64,000 bases of DNA from Actinomycetes bacterium. Its GTDB lineage: Bacteria > Actinomycetota > Acidimicrobiia > Acidimicrobiales > JAKAOS01. Under the pieces are notes generated by a model, which worked only from the letters and a program-made list of their open reading frames with translations, searched no databases and was not told the DNA's origin. Position numbers and translations under genes: made by a program. This document shows, piece by piece, positions 18,297-32,272 of the stretch. The stretch is from positions 28,054 through 92,053 of the forward strand of contig JAJYWE010000004.1 in the NCBI GenBank assembly GCA_021791675.1, written 5' to 3'. Position 1 is the first letter of the stretch, and every line of letters starts with the position of its first letter.

Positions 18297-18706
18297 CAGC
18301 CGACCACCGAGGTGAGGATCGACACCAGCAGCGGCGCCAGCGCGGCAAGGGCGTAGCCGATCGCCGCGGACTTCAGCGCCGTCTTGGCCCGCTCCACCTG
18401 CACCGGGTCGCCGCCGGCAGTGAGGTAGCGCAGCCCGCCGATGGTCAAGAACAGCGTGGCGACCGCGGCGAGCAGGCCGACCAGCCAGTTTCGCAGCGCG
18501 TCGATCACCCCGGTCAGGCTCGGTGGACCGGCGACAGCGAGGAAGCCGTGGCCGGTGGCCGCCGCGGCCGGGGCGGCCAAGACCAAGACCGCCAAGCCGG
18601 CCGCGCCCACGCTGGCGGCCAGCACGCTGAGGGCCCGTCGTATCAGCTTCTTTCGGGTCGGTGTCTTTCGAGTCGGTGTGTTTCGGGTCTCGGCTGGTGG
18701 GGTCAT
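18296..18706 (-). CDS. VirB2/TrbC-like conjugative pilin
   Basis: Trimmed to ATG at 18706. 136 aa: basic N-terminus, signal peptide AAPAAAATG, two hydrophobic helices (LVGLLAAVATLFLTIGG, AIGYALAALAPLLVSIL). Confidence 0.6.
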   Translation of the reverse strand: MTPPAETRNTPTRKTPTRKKLIRRALSVLAASVGAAGLAVLVLAAPAAAATGHGFLAVAGPPSLTGVIDALRNWLVGLLAAVATLFLTIGGLRYLTAGGDPVQVERAKTALKSAAIGYALAALAPLLVSILTSVVG

Positions 18707-19644
18707 GGGTTGCACCTCTGCTCGGCGGAAGGGACGGCAGGCCCGGTGCCGGGGACGGGGGCCGGCCGGCGACGGGCGACACCTCCTCGGGTGGCTCGCT
18801 TCGATAGGTGCGTCGGCGCAAACGACGACCCGCCGGCCGGGTCCCCGTCCCCGGTGGACCCGCACTCCTCCAATCCGCGTTTTGGCGCCAAACGCGACAC
18901 CTCCATTTCGAGATTTCTTTGCGCCAGCCAGGAGCGGACCCGGGTCTCGGCTCGCTGGCGCCGCCGGCGCAGGGTGTGGGCGTCGGTCCCGAGCTGAGCG
19001 GCGAGGGCGGGCAGGTAGATCCCGCCGAGGCGGGTGGCGCTGATCAGCTCGGCGTGGAACGCGCCGATAACCCCGGCGGCCACCGCCTCGGCGAGGACCA
19101 GGTCCGGGTGCCCCCACGGGCGGGGCGGGGCGGCGGAGAACACCGAGTGGCCCCGGCGGGCGGCGGCGGCCGCCTCGCGCCTGCAGGCGGCGCGCCCGCC
19201 GCGGTAGGCGGCCCAGCACAACCGACCTGGCAGGTGCCCGGCGGCGGTGTCGAGGTGGGCGAGGGCGTCGAGGAAGCCGGTGAGGATCTCGGCGTCGGCC
19301 TCTACGGTGTCGACGCCCGGGTAGTCGGCGACCAGCCGGGCGGCCACCCGTCGAAGCCCGGGCAGCGCCACCCCCGCCGCGCCGACCGTCCACGACGGCC
19401 CGGCGGAGCGGGACCGGCCGACCAGCTCGCCCCAGGCGGCCTCCCGGGCCGGGTAGCCGGTGGAGGGGTGCAGCAGGATCGACTTCAGCTCCCCGAGGGG
19501 GATCGTCCGGCGGGGCAGGCCGTGACCCAGAGCGGCCCCGTCGAGGAACAGGGGATCGGGGCCGTCGACCAGCATGGCGAACGCGGCGTCGAGGACCTCC
19601 AGCGGGCCGGGCTGCTCTGGCTCGCGGTGACGGTTGTGTGACAT
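18703..19644 (-). CDS. putative regulator with sigma-70 region-4-like HTH
   Basis: ATG at 19644. LPALAAQLGTDAHTLRRRRQRAETRVRSWL is HTH-like. The last 80 or so codons are low-quality and contain a 35-bp regulatory element. Confidence 0.5.
   Translation of the reverse strand: MSHNRHREPEQPGPLEVLDAAFAMLVDGPDPLFLDGAALGHGLPRRTIPLGELKSILLHPSTGYPAREAAWGELVGRSRSAGPSWTVGAAGVALPGLRRVAARLVADYPGVDTVEADAEILTGFLDALAHLDTAAGHLPGRLCWAAYRGGRAACRREAAAAARRGHSVFSAAPPRPWGHPDLVLAEAVAAGVIGAFHAELISATRLGGIYLPALAAQLGTDAHTLRRRRQRAETRVRSWLAQRNLEMEVSRLAPKRGLEECGSTGDGDPAGGSSFAPTHLSKRATRGGVARRRPAPVPGTGPAVPSAEQRCNP
18867..18901 (-). promoter_or_regulatory. 35-bp palindrome-containing element, copy 1 (upstream of the VirB2-like operon)
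   Basis: The reverse complement GGTGTCGCGTTTGGCGCCAAAACGCGGATTGGAGG matches 21267-21301 at 32/35. Core palindrome CGCGTTT-N6-AAACGCG. Confidence 0.6.
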
Positions 19645-19693
19645 GGGCAGCTCCTCATCTGCGTTGGGGAGCCGCCATCGCGCCAGACGCCGC

Positions 19694-19853
19694 GAACAGA
19701 CCATGAACACTCTCCCCGCCCGCCGTGCGTGTTCAAGATGTGTTCGCGGCCGCAGGGAGGCCTGCCGGTCGTGTTCGCGATCTGTTCACGGCGCCAGCGG
19801 GGCGCCTACCAGGTGTTCATACCGGCGCTGACGTGCGTGTTCACGATCTGTTC
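19694..19853. repeat. array of TGTTC/GAACA pentamers (7 direct, 2 inverted)
   Basis: TGTTC at 19730, 19741, 19772, 19783, 19814, 19838 and 19849; GAACA at 19694 and 19705. Three pairs are spaced 11 bp apart. Lies in the 514-bp gap upstream of the 19644 gene. Confidence 0.7.
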
Positions 19854-20158
19854 ATCGGTGTTGACGTTGCTGTCGGCCACGTCGCGAATATCCGGTGGGC
19901 GGCGGGCCACGACGACGTGGGGAGCGCCGACGGCGCCGTCTTCTTCGAGCAGGAGCCGAGTCCCTTTCCGGTGGTCGTTGCGCGTCGCCTCCGGCGCACC
20001 CCATCGCCGACTGGAGCAACCTGCCGGTGTCCGCGGGGCCGTCGAAGAGCTCCGCCGAGGCCGCCGGGCAGCTCGGCGTAGGCAGGCGGGACGACCTCCA
20101 CCCGCCCCGGGCGAGGGTCAGGCGAGGTTGAAGGCCGACCCGACGGGTCTGCTCGGAG

Positions 20159-20593
20159 TCAGCTGTTGAGGTAGTCGCTGATCACCAGGCTGGTCAGCAC
20201 CGCAGCGCCCCGTCGCCGCGGCGATGCCGCCAACGGGAGGACCCGCACGCCCGCCGTCGCCAGGCGCTTCTCGATCCATGCCCGCTGGTTTGGGTCTCGG
20301 CAGAGGCGGTCGAGGTCGTCGACGACCACGATCTCGAACCAGCCGGCTGCGGCGTCGGCGAGCAGGCGGCCCAGGCCCGGCCGGTCGAGCCGGCCGGAGC
20401 CGACATCGGCGTAGCCGGCGACCAGGTGCCAGCCGGGCCGGGCGGCCACCACCGAGGCGAGGTGGGACTGGCGGCGCTCCAGGTTGGACGGGCGGTGCCG
20501 GTCCACGGCGACCACCCGGGTGTAGGCGGCGACCCCGACCGCCGGCCGCGGGTAGACGGCCTCCCCTTGCCCGCGCCCTGGGTTACCTGTCAC
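20159..20593 (-). CDS. stand-alone serine-recombinase catalytic-domain homologue lacking the nucleophile serine
   Basis: GTG at 20593 (GTGA overlap). VAAYTRVVAVD aligns with the YxRVST motif (the LSR at 23761 has VATYTRISTDE); DRPGLGRLLADAAAGWFEIVVVDDLDRLCR is classic resolvase. Confidence 0.65.
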   Translation of the reverse strand: MTGNPGRGQGEAVYPRPAVGVAAYTRVVAVDRHRPSNLERRQSHLASVVAARPGWHLVAGYADVGSGRLDRPGLGRLLADAAAGWFEIVVVDDLDRLCRDPNQRAWIEKRLATAGVRVLPLAASPRRRGAAVLTSLVISDYLNS

Positions 20594-21165
20594 CGTGGCT
20601 CGCCGGTCTGGGCGTGGCGGTAGCGGCGCGGCCCGGCCGTTGTCTGCACGGCGAGCCCGTCTTCGACCATGCGGGCGAGAGCGTTGCCGATCGCCCCGGC
20701 ACTGCGACCCAGCAGGGACCCAAGGCGGCTGGGAGTGAACTCCACCTCGGGCTCCGCGGCGAGGTGTGCGGCGACCAGCGCCCGTAGCTGCCCTCGCCCG
20801 AGGTGCCCCTCGACGCCCCGATCCCCGTCGGGGAGAACTGCGCTCCGGTCCGTTCGAGCGAGCTGTAGCTGATCTGCGGTGGTGAGCGCCGGTTGTGGCA
20901 GGGACCAGCGGTCGGCCAGCCGCCGGCCCCGTTCCCGCCCGCCGGGGCTGCGCGCCACCCGGTGGTCTGCGCCGAGGGCGGCGAGCGCCTTGGTCACCGT
21001 CGAGCGGCCCAGGCCTGTCGCCACCGCCACCTCCTCGGCGGTGGTGCCGGGACTGCCAGCGAGAGCGGCGAGCACCGCCTCGCTGGTAGCGGTGCCGCCC
21101 CCAGGGCGCCCATCCCGGGCGGCGCTGCTCGGGGAACGCTGCGGTGCTGCGGTGGTCACGGTCAT
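20590..21165 (-). CDS. double winged-helix (MarR-like) DNA-binding protein
   Basis: Two wHTH-like units: TTAEEVAVATGLGRSTVTKALAAL and SRLGSLLGRSAGAIGNALARMVEDGL. Confidence 0.6.
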   Translation of the reverse strand: MTVTTAAPQRSPSSAARDGRPGGGTATSEAVLAALAGSPGTTAEEVAVATGLGRSTVTKALAALGADHRVARSPGGRERGRRLADRWSLPQPALTTADQLQLARTDRSAVLPDGDRGVEGHLGRGQLRALVAAHLAAEPEVEFTPSRLGSLLGRSAGAIGNALARMVEDGLAVQTTAGPRRYRHAQTGEPR

Positions 21166-21266
21166 GGTTGTCCTCCCTCGGACGGTGGCTTCTTTCCTTC
21201 CGAGGACCTACCTCCACTGCGGCGGGCACCTCAAGGCCTGCCGCCGAAGAAGTTTCCCGAAGTCGT

Positions 21267-21301
21267 GGTGTCGCGTTTGGGCCGAAAACGCGGATTGGAG
21301 G
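21267..21301 (+). promoter_or_regulatory. 35-bp palindrome-containing element, copy 2 (35 nt upstream of methyltransferase 1)
   Basis: GGTGTCGCGTTTGGGCCGAAAACGCGGATTGGAGG. Same orientation relative to its downstream gene as copy 1. Confidence 0.6.
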
Positions 21302-21335
21302 GTGTCGGCGCAACCGATGGCCCAGGGCCCAGCCC

Positions 21336-22313
21336 ATGCCAATCTCCCCGTCTTCTCCGTCTCCTGTTCCCCCTCCGACCTCGACCGAGGACGAGGCGGT
21401 CCCGCTCACCGTGTGGCCGGTCGCCCAGGTCTCCGCGCAGCACCAGCGCGCCGGGCGCTACCTGCCCAGCTGCGCCGCCCATCCCGGCAAGATGATCCCC
21501 GCCCTCGCCCGGCGCATCATCGAGGCCTACTCGGCGCCCGGAGACCTGGTCCTCGACCCGATGGCAGGGGTCGGCACAACCCTCATCGAGGCCGCCGCGC
21601 TCGGCCGGCGCTGCGTCGGTGTCGAGCTCGAGGACCGCTGGGTGACCCTCGCCCGTGCCAACCTCGACCACGTCCTGCCCTCGCCAGCCCGATCGCTGGC
21701 CGAGGTGCGCCAGGGTGACGCCCGGTCCCTTCCGGGCCTGCTCGGCGACCTCGCCGGCCGGGTCGACCTGATCATCACCTCCCCGCCGTATGCCTGTGAC
21801 GCGGGGGTGATCGACAAGGGCGCATGGCTCGCGGGGGCGAGGCTGTGTGACCGGGAGAGCCTGAACTACTCGACCAGCCGCAACAATCTCGGCCACGCCC
21901 GAGGCGAGGCCTACCTCGCCGAGATGGCCCAGGTGTACGCCGGGTGCTGCACGGTGTTGCGCCCCGGCGGGCTGATGGTCACGGTGACCAAGAACATGCG
22001 CCGCAGCGGCCGCCTCGTCGACCTGGCAGGGATCACCGTGAGTCTCGCCCATGACGCCGGGTTCGCCTACCTCCAGCACGTGATCGCCCTGCTCGGCGCG
22101 GTCCGCGACAGCGAGCTGGTCGCACACCCGAGTTTCTGGCAGCTGCGCCAGACTCGCCTCGCCAGGGCGAACGGCCACCCGGTGCACCTCACCGTGCACG
22201 AGGACGTCCTGGTCTTCCAGACGCCGGCATGTCCCTCGACTTCAGCGCAACCTCACGATCAGCGTGCCGTCGCCGAGGCCGGGCCGGCCGAGGGAGGAGC
22301 GATCCGTGGCTGA
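21336..22313 (+). CDS. SAM-dependent amino-methyltransferase (SPPY motif), paralogue 1
   Basis: Motif I VLDPMAGVGTT and motif IV ITSPPY. The track start at 21144 overlaps the divergent gene, so it is trimmed to ATG at 21336. Confidence 0.8.
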   Translation: MPISPSSPSPVPPPTSTEDEAVPLTVWPVAQVSAQHQRAGRYLPSCAAHPGKMIPALARRIIEAYSAPGDLVLDPMAGVGTTLIEAAALGRRCVGVELEDRWVTLARANLDHVLPSPARSLAEVRQGDARSLPGLLGDLAGRVDLIITSPPYACDAGVIDKGAWLAGARLCDRESLNYSTSRNNLGHARGEAYLAEMAQVYAGCCTVLRPGGLMVTVTKNMRRSGRLVDLAGITVSLAHDAGFAYLQHVIALLGAVRDSELVAHPSFWQLRQTRLARANGHPVHLTVHEDVLVFQTPACPSTSAQPHDQRAVAEAGPAEGGAIRG

Positions 22314-23238
22314 GCCCACCCGCCGCTGCGAGCTGCCGCTGTCGGTGTGGCCGACCGCCCAGCAGACCTCCCGGACCCAGCGGACCGGGCGTTACCTGCC
22401 CGAGTCGACCGCCCATCCGGCCCGGATGCTGCCCGCCACCGCCCGGCGGGCCATCGAGGCCTACACCGCCCCCGGCGAAGTTGTGCTCGACCCGATGTGC
22501 GGGATCGGCACCACCCTGGTCGAAGCCATCCACCTCGGCCGCCAAGCGGTCGGCGTGGAGTACGAGCCCCGCTGGGCCGACCTGGCCAGAGCGAACCTGA
22601 TCGACGCAGAGACCGGCGGCGCCGCGGGCGACTGGCAGGTTCACACCGGCGACGCCCGTAGCCTCCACCACCTGATCGACACGGCGCTCGCCGGCCGGGT
22701 GGCGTTGGTGCTCACCTCCCCGCCCTACGGGTCCTCCCTGCACGGGCAGGTCCGGGCTCGCCCAGGCCAGGGGGTGGCCAAGGCGGACTGCGCTTACTCG
22801 GCCGACCGGGCCAACCTCGCCCACGTCGGCACCGACAAGCTCCTCGCCGGCTTCACCGACATCCTCGCCGCCTGCGTGCCCTTGCTGCGCCCCGGCGGGA
22901 TCGTGGCGGTCACCGCCCGCCCCTGGCGCAGCCGCGGCGCGCTGGTCGACCTGCCCTCCGCCGTGTTCGCCGCCGGTGAGGCCGCCGGACTGCTCCCCTA
23001 CGAACGCCTCGTCGCGCTGCTGGTCGGGCTGCGCGGCGACACCCTGGTGCCCCGGGCGAGCTTCTTCGCTCTCGACCAGGTCCGCAAAGCCCGCCGGCGG
23101 GGCTGCCCACTGCGGGTGATCGCCCACGAGGACGTCCTCGTGCTGCGCAAACCGTCAAAGCACATGGGTTCAGGGGGATCGAAGGAGCTTCGACGCGAGC
23201 CTGGATGCAGGGCGAGCACGTCGGTGGTGGCACCGTGA
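22264..23238 (+). CDS. SAM-dependent amino-methyltransferase (SPPY motif), paralogue 2
   Basis: VLDPMCGIGTT and LTSPPY; co-linear similarity to paralogue 1 throughout. An alternative GTG start at 22306 overlaps the upstream stop. Confidence 0.8.
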   Translation: MPSPRPGRPREERSVAEPTRRCELPLSVWPTAQQTSRTQRTGRYLPESTAHPARMLPATARRAIEAYTAPGEVVLDPMCGIGTTLVEAIHLGRQAVGVEYEPRWADLARANLIDAETGGAAGDWQVHTGDARSLHHLIDTALAGRVALVLTSPPYGSSLHGQVRARPGQGVAKADCAYSADRANLAHVGTDKLLAGFTDILAACVPLLRPGGIVAVTARPWRSRGALVDLPSAVFAAGEAAGLLPYERLVALLVGLRGDTLVPRASFFALDQVRKARRRGCPLRVIAHEDVLVLRKPSKHMGSGGSKELRREPGCRASTSVVAP

Positions 23239-23474
23239 CCGCTGCCGAGGGCGGGATCACCGGCGAAGCGGACCCGAGGGAAGGGACCGTCGCCGGCGCC
23301 GACCACGCCTGCCAGCGGCCGGGGAACCACCGGCACGGTCGGCACCGCGCTGCGCCCGGGATCACTCTGGCGCCGGTCGAGGCGGCCCCCCTCGACGCCG
23401 AGCACGAACGCCTGGCGTTGGTCTACCTGGCCGAGTTGCTCGCACCGCTGTTCGGCTCCGACGGCTCGGCCTGA
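23235..23474 (+). CDS. small hypothetical ORF coupled to methyltransferase 2
   Basis: GTG at 23235 forms a GTGA overlap with the stop at 23236-23238. Only the C-terminal LDAEHERLALVYLAELLAPLF looks protein-like. Confidence 0.3.
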   Translation: MTAAEGGITGEADPREGTVAGADHACQRPGNHRHGRHRAAPGITLAPVEAAPLDAEHERLALVYLAELLAPLFGSDGSA

Positions 23475-23524
23475 ACGAGGGCCGACTGCACGCTCAGCCC
23501 AGAGCCGGCACGGTGATGTCTCGA

Positions 23525-23560
23525 AACGGGGCGAGTGGGCCTTGATCCGCCCGCCCCGTT
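23525..23560 (+). terminator. GC-rich hairpin downstream of the methyltransferase cluster
   Basis: AACGGGGCG (23525-23533) pairs with CGCCCCGTT (23552-23560). No U-tract. Confidence 0.35.
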
Positions 23561-23608
23561 GAGGTCTCCTCGGGTCAGCCATAACCAACAGAGCAGAGGA
23601 GAAACGAC

Positions 23609-23764
23609 ATGCGGCTCGCCACTGACACCCAGGTCGCCATACCCGACCGGTACCGATCGGTCGGAGTGGGCCGCCAAGGCCACCTCGTCGCCCGGCCAGC
23701 GCCGCCCGTCCCCGGCCCCGGTGGGGAGGAGCCGGCCGGCGCGGTCAGCGGGGTGGGGCGGTGA
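23609..23764 (+). CDS. 51-aa ORF translationally coupled to the serine recombinase
   Basis: GAGGAG lies 7 nt upstream of ATG at 23609; the stop forms a GTGA overlap with the recombinase GTG at 23761. Below the ORF-track size cutoff; own translation MRLATDTQVAIPDRYRSVGVGRQGHLV... Confidence 0.35.
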   Translation: MRLATDTQVAIPDRYRSVGVGRQGHLVARPAPPVPGPGGEEPAGAVSGVGR

Positions 23765-25644
23765 GAGTCGCCACCTACACCCGGATCTCCACCGACGAGG
23801 CCCACCAGCCCTACTCCCTCGAAGCCCAGGCCACCCGGCTCGGCTCCTACATCGCCAGCCAGGACGACTGGAGCTTGGTCCGCCAGTTCTCCGACCAGGC
23901 CTCCGGGGCGAGCACCGAGCGCCCCGAGCTCACCCGGGCACTCACCGAGGCCCGAGCCGGACGCTTCGACCTGCTCCTCGTCTACCGGGTGGACCGCTTC
24001 GCCCGCTCGGTGCGCGGCCTGGCCACCCTCCTCGAGCAACTGGACTCTGCTGGGGTGGCGTTCCGCTCGGCCACCGAACCCTTCGACACCGCCACTCCCG
24101 CCGGGCGGATGATGGTCCAGATGCTCGGGGTGTTCGCCGAGTTCGAACGCTCGACGATCATCGACCGGGTCATCGCCGGCATGGAACGCAAAGCCGCCCG
24201 AGGCGAATGGTGCGGAGGGTCCCGCCCCTACGGCTACGCCATCGACCCGGCCAGCGGCCACCTCGTCCCCGTGGAGACCGAGGAGCCTGTCGTCAAGGCC
24301 ATCTTCGACCGCTACACCCGCGGCCGGGCGGGCTTGAAGACCGTCGCCAACTGGCTCAACACCCGAGGCCATCGCACCAAGAGCGGCAGGCCCTGGAACC
24401 ACATGGCCGTGCTCACCGTGCTGAGAAACCGGGCCTACCTGGGTGAGGTGTACTTCCGGGACGCCTACCACCCCGCCCCACACCGCCCGCTGGTCGATCC
24501 CGACACCTTCGATCTCGCGCAGCGTATCCTCGCCACCCGGGGCGAGGACTACTCGCATCGGGCCGCCAACGCCAGCGACTACCTGCTCGCCGGGCTGCTC
24601 ACCTGCGCCAGCTGCGGCAAGCGTTTCGTCGGCACCGCCGCGCATGGCAACCGCTACCGGTACCGCTACTACACCTGCTTCTCCCGCCAGCGCTACGGCA
24701 CCGACACCTGCAACGCCGAACGCCTCCCCGCCGACGCCCTCGACACCGCAGTCCTCAACGCCCTCCTCGACACCTACACCCGAACCGACCTGTTCGAAAC
24801 AGCATTGGCCGCCGGGGCCGAACGCGCCGGGGCGGTACGGGCCCAACACCAAGCCGAGCTCGCCGTCGTCGACGCCGAGGCCGCCCGGACCGAGGAGGCC
24901 ATCGAGCGCTACCTGCTCGCCTTCGAAGCCGGCACCCTGCCCGAAGCCCAATGCGGGCAGCGCATCCGGACCCTCGGCGCCAAAGCTGCCGAGCTGCGCA
25001 CCCGGCGGGCCGAGCTGGTCGATCTGATCGCCGCCGCCAAGGAACCCGAGGCGCAGCGGGCCACCCTCGACGCCATCCGCGACCACCTCGCCGAGACGAT
25101 CCGAAGTGGCGAGGCCGCCACCAAGAAGGGTCTCCTGCAGAACCTCGTCCACGACATCCGCGTCGAAGGCCGCCACAACATCAAGCCGTACTTCCGCCTA
25201 CCCATCGGGCCCACGACGGTGACGAACCCTGACCCCTCCACGCAGGGCCAAAAGGTTCGTACACCGTCAGGACCGGTGCCCCCGGCAGGACTCGAACCTG
25301 CGACCCGCTGCTTAGAAGGCGTCATGCGGGGCATCCACGGACGTCCAGGACCATATTTGGCCTGCCCAAACAGATCTGGAGCGAGCCCCACGACACCCCC
25401 TCTTCGCCCCCGGTGGCTACCGCTGTGGCTACCACCAACTCGACTACCTTCTCGGCTCAAGTCGTCGACCCCCTCGAGGCGGCTCGGTGCCAGTTCTCCC
25501 ACTCGTCGAGCCACCGTCGCTCCGCGGAGCGGCACGCCGCGACCCCGCTCGCCAACCCAGGGGGCCATCCTTCTGCGTAGCCCTGAGGGTCCTGCTCTCG
25601 CCAGCGCTGATAGTTGGCATTGTGGGCCGCTGTTCGTCTCCTGA
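23761..25644 (+). CDS. large serine recombinase (functional 3' end uncertain: the frame reads through the att/tRNA fragment)
   Basis: VATYTRISTDE nucleophile motif, a recombinase domain, a zinc ribbon CASCGKRF...YYTCFSRQRYGTDTC and a coiled coil. No stop occurs before 25642-25644. Confidence 0.9.
   Translation: MRVATYTRISTDEAHQPYSLEAQATRLGSYIASQDDWSLVRQFSDQASGASTERPELTRALTEARAGRFDLLLVYRVDRFARSVRGLATLLEQLDSAGVAFRSATEPFDTATPAGRMMVQMLGVFAEFERSTIIDRVIAGMERKAARGEWCGGSRPYGYAIDPASGHLVPVETEEPVVKAIFDRYTRGRAGLKTVANWLNTRGHRTKSGRPWNHMAVLTVLRNRAYLGEVYFRDAYHPAPHRPLVDPDTFDLAQRILATRGEDYSHRAANASDYLLAGLLTCASCGKRFVGTAAHGNRYRYRYYTCFSRQRYGTDTCNAERLPADALDTAVLNALLDTYTRTDLFETALAAGAERAGAVRAQHQAELAVVDAEAARTEEAIERYLLAFEAGTLPEAQCGQRIRTLGAKAAELRTRRAELVDLIAAAKEPEAQRATLDAIRDHLAETIRSGEAATKKGLLQNLVHDIRVEGRHNIKPYFRLPIGPTTVTNPDPSTQGQKVRTPSGPVPPAGLEPATRCLEGVMRGIHGRPGPYLACPNRSGASPTTPPLRPRWLPLWLPPTRLPSRLKSSTPSRRLGASSPTRRATVAPRSGTPRPRSPTQGAILLRSPEGPALASADSWHCGPLFVS
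25278..25320 (-). repeat. distal att repeat: 43-bp copy of the tRNA-Arg 3' half
   Basis: Identical to 53231-53273. Lacks the 5' half of the tRNA, so it is not a functional tRNA. Confidence 0.9.
25413..25433 (+). promoter_or_regulatory. putative integrase arm-type sites, distal end
   Basis: GTGGCTACC at 25413 and 25425 (12-bp spacing); related CGACTACC at 25441. Confidence 0.45.
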
Positions 25645-26044
25645 GCTCCTTCCAGGCGACGCAGGCCTGGTCCGCCGCGGTCGCGACGCCCGCCACCATT
25701 GTGCGAACGCTGTCCTCGATGGCCCGATGCCGGGTCTCGGGCTCACTTCGGCACCAACCGACCTCATAGCTGAGCATCCGAAGCTGTTCGGAGGCTTCGT
25801 ACAGCCGGTGGTAGTAACGAGTGCTCGCGTCCGCGCGAGCGATGTGGGCGACTCGGGAGATCTCCAGGATCGCTCGGTTCCGAGCAGTCACGACGGTTCG
25901 CGTGAGGATTGCGTTCGGCCACACGAGCTGTCGGTTCGGGCCGTCTTCCTGGTCCCTGATCCACGTCACCGACGCGAAGGAGGCCTCCACGAACGCAGAA
26001 AGCGCGTCGAGCGACTGTCGGTCGAGTTCGAGGGAGTGGGCCAT
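25457..26044 (-). CDS. hypothetical protein (cargo, lower-GC segment)
   Basis: 195-aa ORF with balanced, helix-rich composition (many E/R/W/Y). No family recognised. Confidence 0.55.
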   Translation of the reverse strand: MAHSLELDRQSLDALSAFVEASFASVTWIRDQEDGPNRQLVWPNAILTRTVVTARNRAILEISRVAHIARADASTRYYHRLYEASEQLRMLSYEVGWCRSEPETRHRAIEDSVRTMVAGVATAADQACVAWKELRRRTAAHNANYQRWREQDPQGYAEGWPPGLASGVAACRSAERRWLDEWENWHRAASRGSTT

Positions 26045-26087
26045 GTTCGTGTTCGATCAGACAACAGGGGACTGGAGACACCCCACC

Positions 26088-26780
26088 TCAGGAGACATGC
26101 ATTCGCAGATCCCGAGAGGACCGAGCATCGCTAACCGAGAAGAGGATTACATCTACAGTCGTTTCAGCGGTATTCGACCCCTGCACACCCACTCCATTCA
26201 TCTCGGAGCTACCAAAGGCCCGAAGGGTCCATGTCCCAGCAGCTTCTTCCGGCAAGCCGGTATACGTTCGATTGCAGGAGTTCGAGGTGTCGATGAGATC
26301 CCTGCATGGGGATAGGTTGACTTCATAAAGCGTGCCATGAGGATCGATCAGATCAAGGGTCAGTGTGACTGTTGCGGGTGAAGACTGTTTTCCGACCCAC
26401 GCGTTCGAGGTTATCGCAGCGTTGATCACGTCGATTCCACCCACGAGCCCAAACCTCACATATGCATTGCTGTAGCCTCCTCCTCCGCCACAGCACTCGA
26501 TCTGAGGATGAACAGCAGGCTGCGGGAGAGTGGCGGCACTCGCAAGAGTTGGCTGGGCGAGCAGCAGGATGGCCGACGTCATAAGTGACGTCGCAACCAC
26601 TAGAGACGTTCTTACCAACGCATGCCCTATGGTCTGTAGAGATGCCGGAATGCGCCCGCTCGGCATATGCGCTTGGTGGTTGATTGTACGAACTCCGACC
26701 CCCACGACACTCCTCCTTCTTCCTCTTGGGCGTGTGGTAACAATGGCGCCCATATATGGGCAGCCCCAAAACCAGCTCAA
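26088..26780 (-). CDS. secreted hypothetical protein (cargo, lower-GC segment)
   Basis: Hydrophobic signal LVVATSLMTSAILLLAQPTLASA, Cys-containing beta-rich body. Start ambiguous (26780, or ATG at 26666). Confidence 0.5.
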   Translation of the reverse strand: MSWFWGCPYMGAIVTTRPRGRRRSVVGVGVRTINHQAHMPSGRIPASLQTIGHALVRTSLVVATSLMTSAILLLAQPTLASAATLPQPAVHPQIECCGGGGGYSNAYVRFGLVGGIDVINAAITSNAWVGKQSSPATVTLTLDLIDPHGTLYEVNLSPCRDLIDTSNSCNRTYTGLPEEAAGTWTLRAFGSSEMNGVGVQGSNTAETTVDVILFSVSDARSSRDLRMHVS

Positions 26781-26972
26781 CAGCTCAGTGCAATACTGTT
26801 CCGAAGGTAGCGCTCGTCGGCCGGCAGGTCAAACAAAAAGCGCCCGGGCATGACCAAGCTCGATCAACGCCCTTACCGCAGGGCGGAGTCAAAGTAGCTA
26901 AGGAACTGCTCTGACCTGGACTGACGCGTCGGCACTGGCGCGAGACCCCTCCCGGGTGCTACAAGCTGGGGG

Positions 26973-28544
26973 GTGAGCGACAGACCAGAGCACGACTTCG
27001 GTTCCCTCGTCGTCCGGTTGGTCGCGCCGTCCGAGGTCGCGCGCTTCAACGAGCTGCTCGACCAGCACCACTACCTCGGGCACAACCTCGTAGGTCGCGT
27101 CCTTCGCTACGTCGCCTGCGAGGACGACGAGTGGGTTGCGCTGCTCGGCTTCGGCTCGCCGGCGCTCAGTCTCCGCCCCCGGGAGGACTTCATCGGCTGG
27201 AGCGAGCAGACCAAGAGCCGCCGCCTGCGCTTTGTCTTGAACAACCAGAGATTCTGCGTCCTCGACGACCGGAGGCGGAAGAACCTCGCCTCTGCGGTGC
27301 TCAGCCGCACCTTGAAACGCGTGAGCGAGGACGCACAGGCTGCCTACGGCGATCCGGTGCTCCTGGTCGAGACCTTCACCGATCCCACTCGCCACCGAGG
27401 CACCTGCTACAAGGCCGCCAACTTCGTGCTCGTCGGACAGACCTCTGGCTACGGGCGCAAGGGTGGTTCGTGGGTCCGCCACGACGTCGTGAAGTACGCC
27501 TGGCTCTACCCGCTCGAAAAGCGCGCCCGGGCGATGCTCGCGGCTCCCTTCGACCATCCGCTGCTCCAGTCAGTGATGAAAAGGAGGAAGGACGTGGCTG
27601 ACCTCAACACCGTGGTCATCGACGGCGAGGGTGGGTTGTACACGCGGCTCTCTGCGCTACCTGATCACCGAAAGCCGAAGGGCGTGCGCCACAAGCTCGC
27701 GGCGGTGCTCCTCGTCTGCGCTGCGGCCATCCTCTGCGATTGCAAGGGCCCGGCCGAGATCGCCGAGTGGGCAGGGGACCTCGATGACGATGCACGAGTG
27801 AGACTCCACTGCCGGCGACAGCCGATGACCGGACACCTGGTCGTGCCGAGTGAGTCGACGATCCAGCGCACACTTCGCCGCGTCGACAAAGAGGCGTTCG
27901 ACCGGATCATCAACGAGACGGTCCACCAGGCCCTCACCAAGCGCGCCGCCGATGCGTTGGCGCACAGCCAAGAGGTGACCGAAGACGAGGCGGAGCCAGG
28001 GGCGGCCGGTGACCACGACACCGGCCACGACGCGCTGATCGCCCCGGTCGACCTCGACGAGGCCGACGAGGACGAGGCCGACAACGACGGCGAGGCCGAC
28101 GTGGCCGCACCTCGCTGCCTCGCGGTCGATGGCAAGAGCCTGCGCGGCGCGATCCGAGACGACGGACGCCTCCTGCACCTGCTCTCGGTGCTCACCCAGA
28201 AGGAGCGGGTGGTGATCGGCCAGGAGGAGGTGGACCACAAGACGAACGAGATCAACCACTTCGCGCCGCTGCTCGCCCCGCTCGACATCAAAGGGAACCT
28301 GGTCACCGCCGACTCGTTGCACACCCAGCGCAAGCACGCCCACTTTCTCGTGGACAAGAAGAAGGCCGACTTCCTGTTCTACGCCGACCTGAACCAGCCG
28401 AAGCTCTACGAGGCAATCGCCGGGCTGGAAGAGGAGGACTGGTCGGAGCCCTACACCGAGACCGACAAGGGACACGGCCGGATCGAGACCCGCACGATCT
28501 GGACCTCGACCAAGATCGGCAAGAGCATCACCTTCCCTCACGTC
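26973..28544 (+). pseudogene. ISAs1-family transposase with N-terminal DUF4338-like domain, 5' part (interrupted)
   Basis: LLVETFTDPTRHRGTCYKAANFVLVGQTSGYGRKG is DUF4338-like; CLAVDGKSLRGA is the ISAs1 DDE region. The frame breaks after ...ITFPHV at the IS3 insertion. Confidence 0.75.
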
Positions 28545-28574
28545 TGGGCTTCCCCCCGCAGGCCGGACACCGAT

Positions 28575-29738
28575 CTATGCAGCTTCTTGGTGTTGCAATG
28601 ACTCCTCGTACTCCCTGGGGGACATGTAGTTCAAAGAGCTGTGAAGTCTTTCGGTATTATACCAGCAGATCCACTCAAAGATGGCGAGACGGGCTTGTTC
28701 TCGTGTGGTAAAGTGTTCGTCGTCCACGAGCTCTCGTTTCAACGATGACCAGAGGCTCTCAGCCATGGCATTGTCGTAGGATTCGCCGACGGTCCCCATG
28801 GACTGTGTGATCCCCATCCGTTTGCAGCACTCCCGGAAGAGGCTCGACGTGTACTGGGAGCCGTGGTCGGAGTGGAAGATGGTGCCGGGGAAGCGTTTCT
28901 TGTTCCGGGTGGCTGCTGCGGCGGCGAGGGCGTCCTCGCACAGCTCTGCCCGCATGTGGTCGGCGATCGACCAGCCGATCAGCCCACGGGTGCAACAGTC
29001 GAGGACGGAGGCGACGAAGACCCACCCCTCGTCCGTCGGGACGTAGGTGATGTCGCCCAGCCAGAGCGCATCGGGCCGCTCTGCAGTGAAGTTCCGGCCC
29101 ACCAGGTCCGGTGCTGATGTGGCGTCGGGGTCGCGCCGGGTGGTGCAGAACTTGCGCCGTCCGCTCTTGCCGGCGATCCCGAGCTCGCTCATGAGCCGGG
29201 CCACGCGCTTCTCGTTCAGCTTCCACCCGGCCCTGCGCAGCTCGGCGGTGATCCTCGGGGCCCCGTAACGGCGCCGAGCGTGACGCCAGGCGTCGACGAT
29301 GGCATTCGCCACGACGGCCTCGTCGATCAGCCCCTCGGAGGGTGTCCTCCCCCGGGAGCGCCACGAGTAGTAGGCGGAGGAGGAGACCCTGGTCACGCTG
29401 CAGAGCAACCGGACCGGGAAGTTCGCGGTCTCGGACTCGATGAAGCGGTAGATCCGCTCACGTTCTCCGCCCGGGGACTCGAAGCCAGCCAGGCGACGAG
29501 CGATCTCGGCCTCTGCCTCAAGGGTGCTCACCCGCCGGAGCAGCGCCTCGATCCGGCGTCCCTCGCCGCCACGAGCTCCTTCGCTCATCTCGACTCTCCC
29601 TTCACCCAGTAGCGCGTGAAGCGCTTCAGGATCTCGATCTCGTCCTCGAGCTCGCGGATCCGCTTGCGCAACCGGGCCTCCTCCTTCGCGGCCTCTTGCT
29701 CTCCAGAAGAAGCCTCTTGCTTCGCGGCCCGGATCCAC
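28575..29738 (-). CDS. IS3-family transposase OrfB frame (expressed via -1 frameshift from OrfA)
   Basis: rve/DDE region: [16 protein letters not shown]...[11 protein letters not shown]...DNAMAESLW. The frame is -1 relative to orfA and has no independent start. Confidence 0.8.
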
Positions 29739-29872
29739 GTCCCGAGGGAGGTGTCCGAGACCCCCAACTCGCGCGCCACATCCTTCAGTGGCCGGCCGGA
29801 GCTCCGGTAGAGCGCCACGGCATCTCGCTTGAACTCGTCCGTGTAGCGGCGGGTCGTCGGTCCCTTCCCCAT
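29585..29872 (-). CDS. IS3-family transposase OrfA
   Basis: [43 protein letters not shown], then a leucine-zipper-like tail. Confidence 0.85.
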
Positions 29873-29935
29873 TTCCCTATCCTCCTCCAGCTGTGCTGGT
29901 TCGGGGTGTCCGGGCTATGGGGGGAGGTTCACGTC

Positions 29936-30280
29936 ACCCAGCTGGTGCGCATCATGCGCGAGGTAGACGACGCTCGGACCAGGACCGCACGGCACACCGA
30001 GACCGTCTACGGGGTGACGAGCACCAACGCGGGAAGGCGGGTGCTGCTGGCGGCCAGCAGGGGCCAGTGGCAGATCGAGAACGGCCTGCACTGGGTGCGG
30101 GACGCGACGATGGGAGAGGACGCCTCCAAGGTGCGTTCGGGCTCCGCTCCCCGGGTGCTCGCCACCCTCCGCAACCTGGCGATCGGAATCCTCCGCCTGG
30201 CCGGTGTCGGAAACATCGCCAAGGGCCTGCGTCACCTCTCGCGTCGACCTGCAATCGCGCTCAGCTTGCTCGGGTTGTAG
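29936..30280 (+). pseudogene. ISAs1-family transposase, 3' part
   Basis: [44 protein letters not shown] is the ISAs1 C-terminal signature. It joins in frame to 28544 once the IS3 and one CGTC copy are removed. Confidence 0.75.
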
Positions 30281-30564
30281 CTTCACCGCGGTCAACGACG
30301 CAACGACCGGCACGCGGCGCTTCGTCGCGCGCCTTGGGGCTGACCGCTCCGTTCCATCACCCGTCGGCGGCGTGTCGATCTCTCCGGGATGCGCTCGATG
30401 TGGGGCCTGCGAGATCCCTGGCTCGGCCGCACCACGGCGCGCTATCTACATCCGTGTACTTTGACTGATTCCCTGGCCCTTACCGCCGCTCACCTAGGTG
30501 GAATGCATGATAATACCCCTTCTAACGCACACTGACGTGCATGATAACATGATAGGCTGCCTGC

Positions 30565-31554
30565 ATGAGCGTCACTCCTGTCGACACCACTCGTCCCACC
30601 CTTGCCGTGCCTCTCTTGGCCGCCGACCGCACCGCAGTCGAGGCCGCCTTGGCGGCGGCGCGGAGCCCGGCGACCCGCCGAGCCTACGAGAGCCAGATGG
30701 GTGCATGGACGCGGTGGGCCGGTGAGCGGGGCTATCCGCTCGGCCCGCCGGCCGAGCCCGAGCACCTCGCCGGATGGCTGGTGTGGCTCGCGCAGCAAGG
30801 GCGCTCGGCGAGCAGCATCGGCCAGGCCGCAGCGGCTATCTCCGCCGCCCACGCAGACGCCGGCATCCCCGATCCGACACAGCACCAAGGCGTCCGGCTC
30901 ACCCTCGCCGGCATCCGGCGCCAGGTCGGCACCGCACCCCGCCGGCTGGCGCACCCGCTCACCACAGACGAGATCCGCAGGATCGTGGACGGGATCAACC
31001 GTGACAGCCTGCGTGGCAAGCGGGACAGCGCACTGGTCCTGATCGGCTACGCGGGCGCGCTGCGCCGGAGCGAGCTGGCCGGCCTGAGGACCAGCGACCT
31101 GTCCATCAGGCCCGCTGGCATCGTCGTCACCATCCGCAGGAGTAAGACCGACCAGGTCTCCGCCGGCCAGGTCGTCGGGATCGCCCGTGGGCGATCACCT
31201 GTTACCGATCCCGTCGCCGCCGTGCGCGACTGGATCGGTGCGGCTGGACTGGATGGCGACAGGTGGCTCTACCCGACCATTGCGTGGTCGGACGCGCGGC
31301 CGCTCTGCCGGCCGATCCGTGGCGAGGACGTGTGCCGCATCCTCGTGCGCCGCGCAGCGGCGGTCGGACTCGGCGACCTGCCGATAAGCGGTCACTCACT
31401 CCGGGCCGGGCACGCCACCACGGCCGCCCGGGCGGGAGTGCCCGCCGACCGTCTGGCCCGGACGACGCGGCACCGCAGCCTGTCCAGCCTCGCTCGTTAC
31501 GTCCGACCGGCCGAGGCGCTGGCCGACACCAGCTCGGCCGATCTCGGCCTGTGA
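30565..31554 (+). CDS. tyrosine site-specific recombinase (second one in element B)
   Basis: SAM-like N-terminal domain; catalytic region ...LRRSELAGL...GHSLRAGHATTAA...RHRSLSSLARY (R, HxxR, Y). Confidence 0.8.
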   Translation: MSVTPVDTTRPTLAVPLLAADRTAVEAALAAARSPATRRAYESQMGAWTRWAGERGYPLGPPAEPEHLAGWLVWLAQQGRSASSIGQAAAAISAAHADAGIPDPTQHQGVRLTLAGIRRQVGTAPRRLAHPLTTDEIRRIVDGINRDSLRGKRDSALVLIGYAGALRRSELAGLRTSDLSIRPAGIVVTIRRSKTDQVSAGQVVGIARGRSPVTDPVAAVRDWIGAAGLDGDRWLYPTIAWSDARPLCRPIRGEDVCRILVRRAAAVGLGDLPISGHSLRAGHATTAARAGVPADRLARTTRHRSLSSLARYVRPAEALADTSSADLGL

Positions 31555-32261
31555 GCGACGCCGAGCTCAGCGACGCCGAGAAGCGTCGGGATCGTGCGGT
31601 CGGACTCTGGGTGCCGTGCCTGATCAGCCCGCTCGTTCCTCTCGCGCAGCGCGTTCAGGCCGAGTCGGAGCTGGCGAATCTCGCTGGAGAATCACCGAGC
31701 TGGGCGGCGCTGCTGTGGGGCGGGTTGATCGCTGAGCTCGCCTGCACCCTGCCGGCGGCAGACCCGTGGCGGGACTGCTCCGCACGGGCCGGAGGGGCGA
31801 CCGTTGGCGGCTTCCCGCCCTCAGCCGACGGTGCGGTGCTCGCCGACGGACAGCCACTCGGACACTTTCGCGACTTCGCCGCAGCGGGACTCGAGCTCGA
31901 GCCGGTCCTCGACGACTGCGTCGAGGAGGACCTGGATCTGGCTCCGGTGGCCACGCCGCTCGATCAACAGGCAGCGGCGCTGATCGCCTTTGGTTTCGAC
32001 GGGTGGCGGGCGGGCGTCGCGGCCGCCGGGCATTTCGCCGGCCTCCACGGCGGCGCTCGGTTCGCCCGCTCGGGCATTGACGCGTTCCGCTGGGTGGCGT
32101 TCCGGAGGCAGGTGTGGAAACGGGGGCTGCCCGACCCGTATCCGCCGTCCAGCGTGCTCATGTGGAACGCCCGCTCCGGAAGGGCTGATTTCGGGAGCGC
32201 AGCCGACGACGCTATGGTCACCGAGGACATCCTCGCCCACCGGTTGGTGCGCCGTGATTGA
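31551..32261 (+). CDS. hypothetical protein coupled to the recombinase
   Basis: GTG at 31551 forms a GTGA overlap with the recombinase stop. 236 aa; no family recognised. Confidence 0.45.
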   Translation: MSDAELSDAEKRRDRAVGLWVPCLISPLVPLAQRVQAESELANLAGESPSWAALLWGGLIAELACTLPAADPWRDCSARAGGATVGGFPPSADGAVLADGQPLGHFRDFAAAGLELEPVLDDCVEEDLDLAPVATPLDQQAAALIAFGFDGWRAGVAAAGHFAGLHGGARFARSGIDAFRWVAFRRQVWKRGLPDPYPPSSVLMWNARSGRADFGSAADDAMVTEDILAHRLVRRD

Positions 32262-32272
32262 GCGGCCGGCGA

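What the first reader, a model, noticed from the sequence alone, without database searches (positions are those of the whole stretch)
23761..25644. Large serine recombinase frame has no stop before the att/tRNA fragment, so its C-terminus depends on what lies across the junction
Seen: after the coiled-coil region the frame reads ...NIKPYFRLPIGPTTVTNPDPSTQGQKVRTPSGPVPPAGLEPATRCLEG. The last 14 residues are the antisense tRNA fragment. The frame then continues 107 codons into element B before the stop at 25642-25644. If element B is deleted in silico, the same frame continues 88 codons across antisense tRNA-Arg to TAA at 53538-53540.
Established: placing an att site inside a coding region, so that integration alters the gene's 3' end, is known for repressor genes of integration-dependent-immunity mycobacteriophages.
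Inference: the native C-terminus may exist only in the excised circular form. The integrated form would then make an extended, possibly unstable or inactive, recombinase.
Basis: partly seen in the sequence, partly recalled or inferred. Interest (0 to 1): 0.6.

Follow-up and report, generated by a model that had tools for sequence, protein, structure and literature searches.

The report
Serine integrase gene split by integration
A 53-kb conjugative element's serine integrase gene contains the element's own recombination site, so insertion next to a tRNA-Arg gene replaced the enzyme's conserved last 37 amino acids with unrelated read-through sequence; a large, little-described family of actinobacterial integrases does the same at tRNA genes.

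Summary
The frame 23761-25644 (627 aa) is a complete large serine recombinase (LSR). It has no stop before the 43-nt tRNA-Arg fragment at 25278-25320, and homologues match only to about residue 515.

I found the left end of element A 53 kb away, at the start of the contig and outside the window. It carries the missing 3' end of the gene in the same codon register. Joining the two ends in silico gives a 543-aa protein ending HPALHNTNLLPLVDGPTLSLAGAHAKVRRDGYLRSSV*. Ten independent copies in relatives encode the same 32-35-aa tail, and their differences fall mostly on third codon positions.

Three independent lines place the crossover at about 25278|25279, the last bases of the tRNA. In 62 of 80 species-representative relatives the LSR gene runs antisense into a whole tRNA (51) or a tRNA fragment (11). 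The tRNAs are Arg, Ala, Val, Glu, Lys and Ile.

Element B (25321-53230) entered the same tRNA later by a tyrosine integrase, and only changed which unrelated tail is read.

Precedents exist for an integrase gene that spans its own site: Mx8 IntP/IntX, SSV, Dehalococcoides DsiB and streptococcal rumA elements. I found no description of serine integrases targeting tRNAs. This scan has noted the same layout on other genomes. What the tail does is untested.

The parts
23761..25278 (+). Element-borne (P-side) part of the large serine recombinase gene, residues 1-506 (MRVATYTRISTDE...KVRTPSGPV)
   Evidence: ORF. Pfam Resolvase 4-150, Recombinase 173-260 and Zn_ribbon_recom 275-335. All invariant family residues are present. 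DNA homology to the closest relative L001 runs through this stretch and ends at 25289.
25254..25278 (+). P half-site of the element's attP, lying inside the coding sequence; outer word GGTTCG at 25254-25259
   Evidence: This DNA is conserved among recombinases only 50-60% identical in protein. GGTTCG lies exactly 38 nt before the T-loop word TCGAA in 62 of 66 loci. It forms a dyad with the P' arm in 18 of 26 positions.
25277..25289 (.). Crossover region; best estimate of the centre is 25278|25279, tRNA positions 72|71
   Evidence: It is the dyad centre of six attP sequences. It corresponds to the branch point C36:127|128 between contigs C36 and C80. L026 diverges from L021 and L027 at the same nucleotide. 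Homology to L001 ends at 25289.
25279..25320 (+). Retained antisense 3' part of tRNA-Arg: the B' half-site of element A's right junction (T-loop word TCGAACC at 25292-25298). Read as PPAGLEPATRCLEG.
   Evidence: It belongs to the 43-nt exact repeat with 53231-53273. The T-loop word lies 5 nt closer to the centre than the same word in P and P'. This fits the zinc-ribbon-motif shift described in PMC3783163.
25321..25644 (+). Read-through of the recombinase frame into the left end of element B (107 codons, stop at 25642-25644); not conserved
   Evidence: No homologue shares it.
25321..53230 (.). Element B, a later insertion into the same tRNA-Arg. It carries an FtsK/SpoIIIE-type gene, insertion sequences, a sortase with a surface protein, and tyrosine integrases.
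   Evidence: 43-nt direct repeats. Pfam results.
51865..53100 (-). N-terminal part of element B's tyrosine integrase, next to the tRNA. The C-terminal part (RLHDARHTAAT...GH...Y) lies at about 49492-49810, beyond an IS1182-type insertion sequence (transposase 49875-51725).
   Evidence: Pfam Phage_integrase profile positions 3-58 only. C-terminal motifs appear in the frame 49492..50403. DDE transposase domains.
53229..53303 (-). Intact tRNA-Arg(TCT), the shared target. Its 3' part now comes from element B.
   Evidence: ARAGORN. Sequence.
20152..23760 (.). Conserved module upstream of the recombinase: a 144-aa resolvase-domain protein, a double winged-helix protein (both minus strand), two N6/N4 DNA methyltransferases and small ORFs
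   Evidence: 80-88% DNA identity to L001 over 20152-25289. Pfam results.
1..20151 (-). Conjugation part of element A: Tad/T2SS-type ATPase and membrane protein, Replic_Relax relaxase, coupling protein, VirB4/TraG-like ATPase. The element continues 27.9 kb to the left of the window, to contig position C36:128.
   Evidence: Pfam results. Left end located.

Best explanation
**Structure (shown).** Element A is a conjugative element of about 53.2 kb. It spans contig C36 positions 128 to 53331, which ends at window position 25278. Its integrase is the large serine recombinase at 23761. The element's attachment site (attP) lies inside that gene, 37 codons before its true stop.

**Integration (inferred).** Recombination with the extreme 3' end of tRNA-Arg(TCT), around tRNA positions 71-73, split the gene.
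- Codons 1-506 stayed at the right end of the element. There they now read antisense into the tRNA.
- The last 37 codons (HPALHNTN...KVRRDGYLRSSV, then a stop) went to the left end, 53 kb away.
- Excision would rejoin the two pieces in frame and give a 543-aa protein.

**Site recognition (inferred).** The enzyme family probably reads the conserved tRNA T-loop word (GGTTCGA, antisense TCGAACC) with its zinc-ribbon domain. The same word lies 5 bp further out in both arms of attP than in the tRNA. That shift is the known signature distinguishing attB from attP for this enzyme class.

**Element B (shown).** It later inserted into the rebuilt tRNA by a tyrosine integrase. It left 42 nt of tRNA (25279-25320) attached to the recombinase gene, which is enough to keep element A's right junction whole. 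Its arrival changed the unrelated tail from 102 to 121 residues.

**Function (inferred, not shown).** The full-length enzyme is made only from the circular form, or from a tandem array. The tail-less chromosomal form may therefore behave differently in activity, direction or stability, as Mx8 IntX does.
For: **The gene and the family**
- The frame and its domains are as described.
- Homologues align only to about residue 515 and their tails then diverge.
- Among 80 species-representative loci, 51 have a whole antisense tRNA under the ORF end and 11 have a tRNA 3' fragment. The tRNAs are Arg (5 anticodons), Ala, Val, Glu, Lys and Ile.
- Where the alignment anchors cleanly, ARAGORN places the tRNA 3' end 2-3 nt after the KVRxxSG anchor.

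**The left end of element A**
- Contig C36 positions 128-241 read in the same codon register as the recombinase. They encode a tail homologous to the one that directly follows the recombinase in L024, L025 and L027 (tblastx E about 1e-11 to 1e-12).
- Reconstruction gives 543 aa.

**Replicates in other genomes**
- Detached tail-coding arms sit upstream of integrated recombinases in L021, L026, L027, L029, L030 and L024.
- L021 is a clean 5.9-kb element with a 14-nt direct repeat (TCGGCGCCCCCGGC) and an intact tRNA-Arg.

**The tail is a selected coding sequence**
- Ten copies share the frame, have similar lengths (stop after 32-35 codons where it was read) and share the motif NxN...LAxxHAKVRRxGY.
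- Beyond the half-site, differences by codon position are 300, 276 and 552.

**The crossover**
- The dyad centre is the same in six attP sequences, with 18 of 26 positions paired for element A.
- Chromosomal contig C80 and contig C36 share 127 nt and diverge exactly there.
- L026 diverges from L021 and L027 at the same nucleotide.

**Geometry**
- GGTTCG lies 38 nt before TCGAA in 62 of 66 loci.
- The 5-bp motif shift matches PMC3783163.

**Element B**
- 43-nt repeats and a split tyrosine integrase next to the tRNA.
Against: - No read-level or experimental evidence of excision was obtainable.
- No non-palindromic 2-nt core is shared by the two junctions at the inferred centre. The spanning dinucleotide is GC. 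The one to its left is TG at the right junction but CG at the left.
- The chromosomal flank is also joined, in contig C80, to a different sequence ('X'). The population is therefore heterogeneous at this site, and C36 could in principle be a path through mixed strains.
- The closest recombinase (L001, 94% identical) is followed by a third, unexplained sequence.
- The tail is predicted to be disordered (pLDDT about 30) with a shallow alignment, so there is no structural hint to its role.
Confidence: 0.85

Rival explanations
1. The overlap is only site economy. The attachment site happens to sit at the end of the integrase gene, and neither the 37-residue tail nor the read-through sequence affects the enzyme. 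Both forms would work alike.
For: - Integrated tails in relatives are arbitrary, from 12 to more than 100 codons.
- All folded domains end about 30 residues before the crossover, and the tail is modelled as disordered.
- The first 8 or so tail codons are constrained anyway, because they are also the P' binding site.
Against: Beyond the half-site the tail is conserved in ten copies. They share one frame, a similar stop position, and twice as many third-position changes as first- or second-position changes. This indicates selection on the peptide. Another subfamily has a tail of about 100 residues that looks like a folded winged-helix domain.
Confidence: 0.3
2. The recombinase is not element A's integrase. 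The tRNA fragment at 25.3 kb would belong only to element B's tyrosine-integrase repeat, and the open frame would be a coincidence of GC-rich DNA that lacks stops.
For: - The 43-nt repeat is typical of tyrosine-integrase islands.
- High-GC DNA has long spurious open frames.
Against: - 62 of 80 relatives abut a tRNA or a tRNA fragment in the same register, most of them without a second element.
- Homology to L001 and the dyad symmetry place the junction 31-42 nt to the left of element B's boundary.
- The detached tail at the far end of element A is in frame.
- L021 shows the same architecture with no tyrosine integrase involved.
Confidence: 0.03
3. Contig C36 is a chimeric assembly path. Element A would sit at two sites in different strains: at the locus where contig C80 continues with sequence 'X', and at tRNA-Arg. 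The left and right junctions seen here would then come from different genomes.
For: - C80 and C36 share one 127-mer and then branch.
- C80 stops 124 nt later, about one k-mer length, as expected for a junction-spanning edge in a mixed population.
- The X sequence also follows a recombinase P arm in L026.
Against: The last two bases of the flank (CG) fit the native end of the tRNA (G73, C72). Even if this rival were true, the gene-splitting conclusion would be unchanged, because P' is still detached from the recombinase at the same nucleotide.
Confidence: 0.15

Closest known systems
Dehalococcoides ssrA genomic-island integrase DsiB (McMurdie et al. 2011, PMC3146451)
   Same: - It is a large serine recombinase whose gene overlaps attP/attL, leaving its stop codon undefined.
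- Its target is the tRNA-like 3' end of a stable RNA gene.
- Its islands form tandem arrays.
- A small second resolvase-domain protein without a DNA-binding domain (DsiA) sits in the integration module; here the counterpart is the 144-aa product of 20159-20593.
- The authors already suggested the gene may be fully functional only on the circle, or when it lies next to another island.
   Different: [quoted passage not shown] Here the targets are true tRNAs of six amino-acid types, and the crossover is at the acceptor tip.
- No conserved excised-form tail was shown for DsiB.
- I did not test sequence relatedness to DsiB.
Myxococcus phage Mx8 IntP/IntX and fusellovirus SSV integrases (cited in Hudson et al. 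2015, PMC4383910)
   Same: attP lies inside the integrase gene, so integration alters or splits its C-terminal coding part.
   Different: These are tyrosine recombinases with a different chemistry and site architecture. The same paper states that serine-family integrases were not known to target tRNA genes.
rumA-targeting single serine integrases of Streptococcus conjugative elements (Ambroset et al. 2016, PMC4701971)
   Same: Direct repeats of 2-21 bp lie in the target gene at one end and in the serine integrase gene at the other. Integration exchanges the 3' parts and changes the integrase C-terminus.
   Different: The target is a protein-coding gene (rumA) in Firmicutes, not a tRNA. There is no antisense tRNA read-through.
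Phage-type large serine integrases (A118/LI, Bxb1, phiC31, SPbeta SprA)
   Same: - The domain set is the same, and they match by sequence in the PDB search.
- The attP is palindromic, and its outer motif lies 5 bp further from the centre than in attB.
   Different: - Protein identity to anything in the phage or plasmid collections is below 30%.
- From memory, I know of no description of the att sites of these enzymes lying inside their own genes or in tRNAs.
Integration-dependent immunity of mycobacteriophages
   Same: attP lies inside a coding region, so integration changes the C-terminus of the product.
   Different: There the gene is the repressor and the integrase is a tyrosine recombinase. 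Here it is the serine integrase itself. No immunity function is implied.

Membership tests
Large serine recombinases (serine integrases) | N-terminal resolvase catalytic domain with serine nucleophile | tested here: met
   PF00239, E 7e-41, residues 4-150; YTRISTDE motif with S10.
Large serine recombinases (serine integrases) | Recombinase domain plus zinc-ribbon domain with an inserted coiled coil | tested here: met
   PF07508 and PF13408. The AlphaFold2 model of the full-length relative L025 has long helices at 342-462 followed by a closing beta-hairpin.
Large serine recombinases (serine integrases) | Attachment sites of about 40-50 bp with dyad symmetry, the outer motif shifted 5 bp inward in attB relative to attP | tested here: met
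   18 of 26 dyad positions pair in the reconstructed attP. CGAACC lies at positions 20-25 in P and P' and at 15-20 in the tRNA arm. The rule comes from PMC3783163. The chromosomal B arm shows no clear motif.
Large serine recombinases (serine integrases) | Non-palindromic 2-bp crossover core shared by all four sites | tested here: inconclusive
   At the inferred centre the shared dinucleotide is GC, which is palindromic. The neighbouring dinucleotides differ between the left and right junctions.
Large serine recombinases (serine integrases) | Separate recombination directionality factor needed for excision | not tested
   No candidate was identified. The small ORFs at 23205-23474 and 23609-23764 have no Pfam match (for the first).
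Integrase genes that span their own attP (Mx8 IntP, SSV Int, DsiB, rumA-element serine integrases) | Crossover lies inside the integrase ORF, so the two junctions each carry part of the gene | tested here: met
   Codons 1-506 are at window 23761-25278 and codons 507-543 at C36:128-238, in the same register. Replicated in L021, L026, L027, L029 and L030.
Integrase genes that span their own attP (Mx8 IntP, SSV Int, DsiB, rumA-element serine integrases) | The integrated-form protein differs in activity from the excised-form protein | not testable with these tools
   This needs biochemistry or genetics.
Classical tRNA-integrated islands (Islander signature: intact tRNA gene plus a displaced tRNA fragment) | Direct repeat of a substantial 3' tRNA segment at the far end of the element | tested here: not met
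   This row concerns element A. No third copy of the tRNA segment exists in the contig or the genome. Its left junction shares only about 9 of 12 bases with the tRNA end. Element B does meet the signature, with 43 nt.
Integration-dependent immunity systems | attP inside the repressor gene, with integration removing a degradation tag | tested here: not met
   The split gene is the integrase, not a repressor. No tag was examined.

The most novel reading that the evidence does not exclude
This actinobacterial family of serine integrases is a natural tRNA-end integrase family. It would recognise the universally conserved T-loop as the zinc-ribbon motif of attB, which lets different members use at least six tRNA types. 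It would also use the split of its own gene as a switch. Only the circular element, or an upstream copy in a tandem array, would make the full-length enzyme, whose conserved basic tail is needed for integration or for controlling direction. The chromosomal, tail-swapped form would be attenuated and so stabilise the insertion.
Probability: 0.35. Interest if true: 0.7.

Novelty: new variant of a known kind. Interest (0 to 1): 0.55.

Why it matters
Serine integrases are the main tools for inserting large DNA into genomes. How they choose targets and how their direction is controlled are active questions.

- **Targets.** This family targets the 3' tip of many different tRNA genes. The geometry suggests that it reads the conserved T-loop. 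That would be a portable, ubiquitous class of landing site. A 2015 reference work stated that serine integrases were not known to use tRNA genes (PMC4383910).
- **Regulation.** Because the gene is split by integration, the enzyme's form reports whether the element is in or out of the chromosome. This is a simple state-dependent control. It has been documented for tyrosine integrases (Mx8, SSV), but only hinted at for serine integrases (DsiB, rumA elements).
- **Annotation.** The stop codons and lengths given for hundreds of 'recombinase family proteins' in actinobacterial MAGs are junction artefacts. Island finders that look for displaced tRNA fragments will miss these elements.

Tried and rejected
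- **Third tRNA-fragment copy.** I looked for one to mark element A's left end. None exists in the window, the contig or the genome.
- **Empty site in relatives.** The relatives held are too distant. Synteny to the left of tRNA-Arg is lost, and one relative's contig ends at the tRNA.
- **L001 as a model for the circular junction.** Its downstream sequence is absent from this genome and belongs to a different, unexplained tail class.
- **Block X (ECF sigma plus ABC transporter) as chromosomal flank.** It is absent from relatives, so it is cargo.
- **Metagenome scans.** Scans for the empty site and for the circular junction of element A each found 0 hits.
- **Plasmid and phage collections.** I searched them for non-integrated relatives; nothing above 30% identity was found.
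- **Tail-only protein search.** It returned only 4 hits at the database-wide E-value.
- **Rfam.** A search on the odd downstream sequences found only a group II intron in L058.
- **Pattern search for sequence X in 400 genomes.** It gave one chance hit in a coding region.
- **AlphaFold2 of a full-length relative.** The tail is modelled as disordered, so it gives no structural clue.
- **Remnant recombinase gene left of the left junction.** I considered and rejected this. Only the tRNA-like bases match, and the flank is ordinary chromosome.
Full report
**1. The observation**

The frame 23761-25644 (+, 627 aa, GTG start) is real. It is a complete large serine recombinase (LSR), with Resolvase, Recombinase and Zn_ribbon_recom domains. 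It carries all residues that are invariant in a 46-member family alignment.

ARAGORN finds tRNA-Arg(TCT) at 53229-53303 on the minus strand, followed by tRNA-His and tRNA-Lys. The 43 nt at 25278-25320 are identical to 53231-53273, which is the acceptor-to-anticodon-loop part of that tRNA. A 22-mer from this repeat occurs at only these two places in the window, against none expected by chance.

The LSR frame reads ...KVRTPSGPVPPAGLEPATRCLEG through the fragment. It then runs 107 more codons into the next element.

**2. The surroundings**

The window is G000:C36:28054-92053, from a 3.1-Mb, 149-contig, high-GC genome.

*Element B, 25321-53230.* It carries an FtsK/SpoIIIE-type gene, a sortase with a large surface protein, insertion sequences and tyrosine recombinases. 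Next to the tRNA lies a tyrosine integrase whose N-terminal part (51865-53100, minus strand) is separated from its C-terminal motifs (about 49492-49810) by an IS1182-type insertion sequence. Element B is an ordinary tRNA-integrated island with a 43-nt repeat.

*Left of the LSR.* There are two DNA methyltransferases, a double winged-helix protein and a 144-aa resolvase-domain protein. Further left come a type IV secretion set (relaxase, coupling protein, VirB4-like ATPase) and Tad-type genes. Outside the window the element continues with a CBASS-like set, other defence genes, an ECF sigma/ABC transporter block and an MFS transporter. This is element A.

**3. The family**

A protein search gave 1728 relatives. 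The best 120 align to only 81-83% of the query, about residue 515, and range from 441 to 679 aa. After a shared KVRxxSGSxPPAG, their tails diverge.
- 89 of the 120 contain the antisense T-arm signature G(L/F/I/V)EP.
- The rest fall into a few other classes.

I also fetched 80 species-representative genomic loci, from Acidimicrobiia, Thermoleophilia, Actinomycetes and a few others. Their ORF ends sort as follows:
- 51 have a whole antisense tRNA under the ORF end.
- 11 have only a tRNA 3' fragment there. Five of these show a second copy of the fragment up to 8.6 kb downstream, and in three it lies in a whole tRNA, as in tandem insertions like ours.
- 3 have the LHNAN tail class described in section 4.
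- 6 have other tails.
- 9 are truncated.

The tRNAs are Arg (five anticodons), Ala, Val, Glu, Lys and Ile. Where the alignment anchors cleanly, ARAGORN places the tRNA 3' end 2-3 nt after the KVRxxSG anchor. In 42 of the 51 the frame stops inside the tRNA after 12-23 codons. Running into a tRNA is therefore a family trait, and the integrated tails are arbitrary.

**4. The left end of element A and the circular junction**

No third copy of the tRNA segment exists in the genome. However, the first 240 nt of contig C36 contain GCC TTA CAC AAT ACG AAC.... This reads, in the same codon register as the LSR's GTG CCC CCG GCA, as ALHNTNLLPLVDGPTLSLAGAHAKVRRDGYLRSSV followed by a stop.

The same tail follows the LSR directly in L024, L025 and L027 (tblastx E about 1e-11 to 1e-12). 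Joining the LSR to this arm in silico gives a 543-aa protein.

The pattern repeats in other genomes. Detached tail-coding arms lie upstream of integrated LSRs in L021, L026, L027, L029, L030 and L024.
- L021 is the cleanest case: a 5.9-kb element. Its left junction is ...TCGGCGCCCCCGGC|C-TCCCAGAATGCGAAC.... Its right junction is LSR...TCGGCGCCCCCGGC|AGGAGTCGAACC..., continuing into an intact tRNA-Arg(TCT).
- In L027 another LSR gene ends just before the upstream arm. An LSR directly followed by a tail can therefore also arise in tandem arrays.

Ten tail copies share the frame, have similar lengths (stop after 32-35 codons where it was read) and share the motif NxN..L..G....LA..HAKVRRxGY. Beyond the first nine codons, which double as the binding site, pairwise differences by codon position are 300, 276 and 552. 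That is the pattern of a translated, selected sequence.

**5. Where the strands cross**

Three independent lines point to window 25278|25279, which corresponds to tRNA positions 72|71.
- The best dyad axis of four contiguous and two reconstructed attP sequences falls there. For element A, 18 of 26 positions pair.
- Contig C80 ends in ordinary chromosomal genes for TMEM164, a P450, DUF190 and a hydrolase. It shares its 127-mer with the start of C36 and diverges exactly at C36:127|128.
- L026, whose P arm is identical to those of L021 and L027, diverges from them at the same nucleotide.

Homology with the closest relative L001 (94% protein, 88% DNA identity) ends 11 nt further right, at 25289. 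That sets an outer bound.

The swap therefore begins at codon 507. The excised form reads ...GPV-HPALHNTN.... The integrated form reads ...GPV-PPAGLEPATRCLEG....

One problem remains. The only dinucleotide shared by both junctions at the centre is GC, which is palindromic, whereas known serine integrases use asymmetric cores. This needs wet mapping.

**6. A likely recognition rule (inference)**

The P arm carries GGTTCG at positions 20-25 from the centre, and the P' arm carries its complement CGAACC at 20-25. In the tRNA arm the same word is the T-loop (TCGAACC, window 25292-25298), at positions 15-20.

GGTTCG lies exactly 38 nt before the T-loop TCGAA in 62 of 66 loci, whatever the tRNA. A 5-bp inward shift of the zinc-ribbon motif in attB relative to attP is the published rule for this enzyme class (PMC3783163).

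So the family plausibly reads the universal T-loop. That would explain how its members have spread over many tRNAs. The chromosomal arm downstream of the tRNA shows no clear motif.

**7. History of this locus**

The chromosomal flank (C80) ends in ...GTCGCG. Its last two bases fit C72 and G73 of the native tRNA.
- Element A entered at the tRNA tip. Almost the whole tRNA stayed chromosomal.
- Element B then entered the same tRNA further inside, bringing its own 3' half.
- This left 42 nt of the old tRNA (25279-25320) attached to the LSR gene. That stretch still contains the full B' half-site.

Element A's two junctions and both gene pieces are intact, so it could in principle still excise on its own.

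**8. What the split may do**

An AlphaFold2 model of the full-length relative L025 (mean pLDDT 81.6) folds up to the closing beta-hairpin at residue 478. Residues 483-529 are modelled as disordered. These include the P-arm-encoded KVR...PPG segment and the tail.

The chromosomal form therefore keeps every folded domain and is probably still a DNA-binding, catalytically competent protein.

The conserved basic tail exists only when P and P' are joined. I consider a state-dependent change in activity, direction or stability the most likely meaning, by analogy with Mx8 IntP/IntX. It is an inference, and the neutral alternative keeps about 0.3.

**9. Comparison with what is known**

Integrase genes that extend across attP are known for Mx8 and SSV, both tyrosine recombinases. 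The same paper says that serine integrases were not known to target tRNA genes (PMC4383910).

Two serine-recombinase precedents exist.
- DsiB of the Dehalococcoides ssrA islands has the tmRNA repeat embedded in its gene. Its stop codon is described as 'unclear', and the authors suggest it may be fully functional only on the circle (PMC3146451).
- The rumA-targeting integrases of streptococcal conjugative elements exchange 3' ends with the target gene (PMC4701971).

Nothing closer than 30% identity is in the phage or plasmid collections. My literature searches found no description of tRNA-tip-targeting serine integrases.

Earlier notes of this scan describe the same layout on other genomes, including an actinobacterial family (e1-2554867). 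I reached the present conclusions from my own tests.

**10. Verdict**

This is a new variant of a known kind: an attP inside the integrase gene, here for serine integrases at tRNA tips. It is a well-supported example with both ends, and it yields a testable recognition model.

**Limits.** There is no read or wet evidence. The crossover core is unresolved. The population is heterogeneous at the left flank (sequence 'X'). The downstream sequence of L001 is unexplained.

Noticed in passing
G000:C36:1-127 and G000:C80:76447-76697 (outside the window): Chromosomal contig C80 shares a 127-mer with the start of C36. It then continues for 124 nt with AGGTCTTCACGTTTGCGGCTGACC.... This sequence is homologous to what follows the recombinase P arm in L026, from another MAG. 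A second partner sequence is thus joined at the same nucleotide: either another element's left end (strain polymorphism) or a second target site.
   Followed up: partly
L083:11537-11767, 14840-15058, 18019-18237; L085 and L086:11480-11707: Solirubrobacterales members of the recombinase family have a different P'-encoded tail of about 100 residues that looks like a winged-helix domain (...RRPGWVLKAVVQVLxDRxEPMRAKDIHxAVExLI...RGxYVL). L083 carries two extra copies of that arm downstream.
   Followed up: partly
window 20159-21165 (minus strand): A 144-aa resolvase-domain protein without a DNA-binding domain and a double winged-helix protein are conserved next to the recombinase module in L001. 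The pair resembles the DsiA/DsiB and CcrA/CcrB pairs described in PMC3146451.
   Followed up: partly
G000:C36:9993-26038 (left of the window): Element A carries defence cargo. One set is CBASS-like: JAB, ThiF/E1, SMODS cyclase and TIR-SAVED. There is also an HTH protein with an M78 peptidase domain. A further set comprises an SNF2/NOV_C helicase, a DUF1156 methylase and a HEPN_Swt1-DUF499 protein.
   Followed up: no
G000:C36:2678-7826 and L001:1012-6167: A five-gene ECF-sigma/ABC-transporter block is 78% identical between this element and L001. In L001 it lies directly beside the recombinase module, inverted; here it is 40 kb away. It was not found in 30 relatives, so it is mobile cargo.
   Followed up: partly
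L001:11525-11581 and L058:11540-11596: A third class of sequence follows the recombinase, giving the tails NHADGKPHDLRFRGEY* and HHKDGTWCDLRKRRLE*. It is shared by recombinases only 57% identical to each other. It is neither tRNA nor the LHNAN arm, and Rfam finds nothing there.
   Followed up: partly
L058:12590-12709: A group II intron (RF01999, 96.5 bits) lies about 1 kb downstream of a family member's recombinase gene.
   Followed up: no
L048, L053, L060, L072, L088: Other family members also have later insertions between the recombinase and its tRNA. The tRNA fragments are repeated 2-8.6 kb downstream, so stacking of elements at the same tRNA is common.
   Followed up: partly
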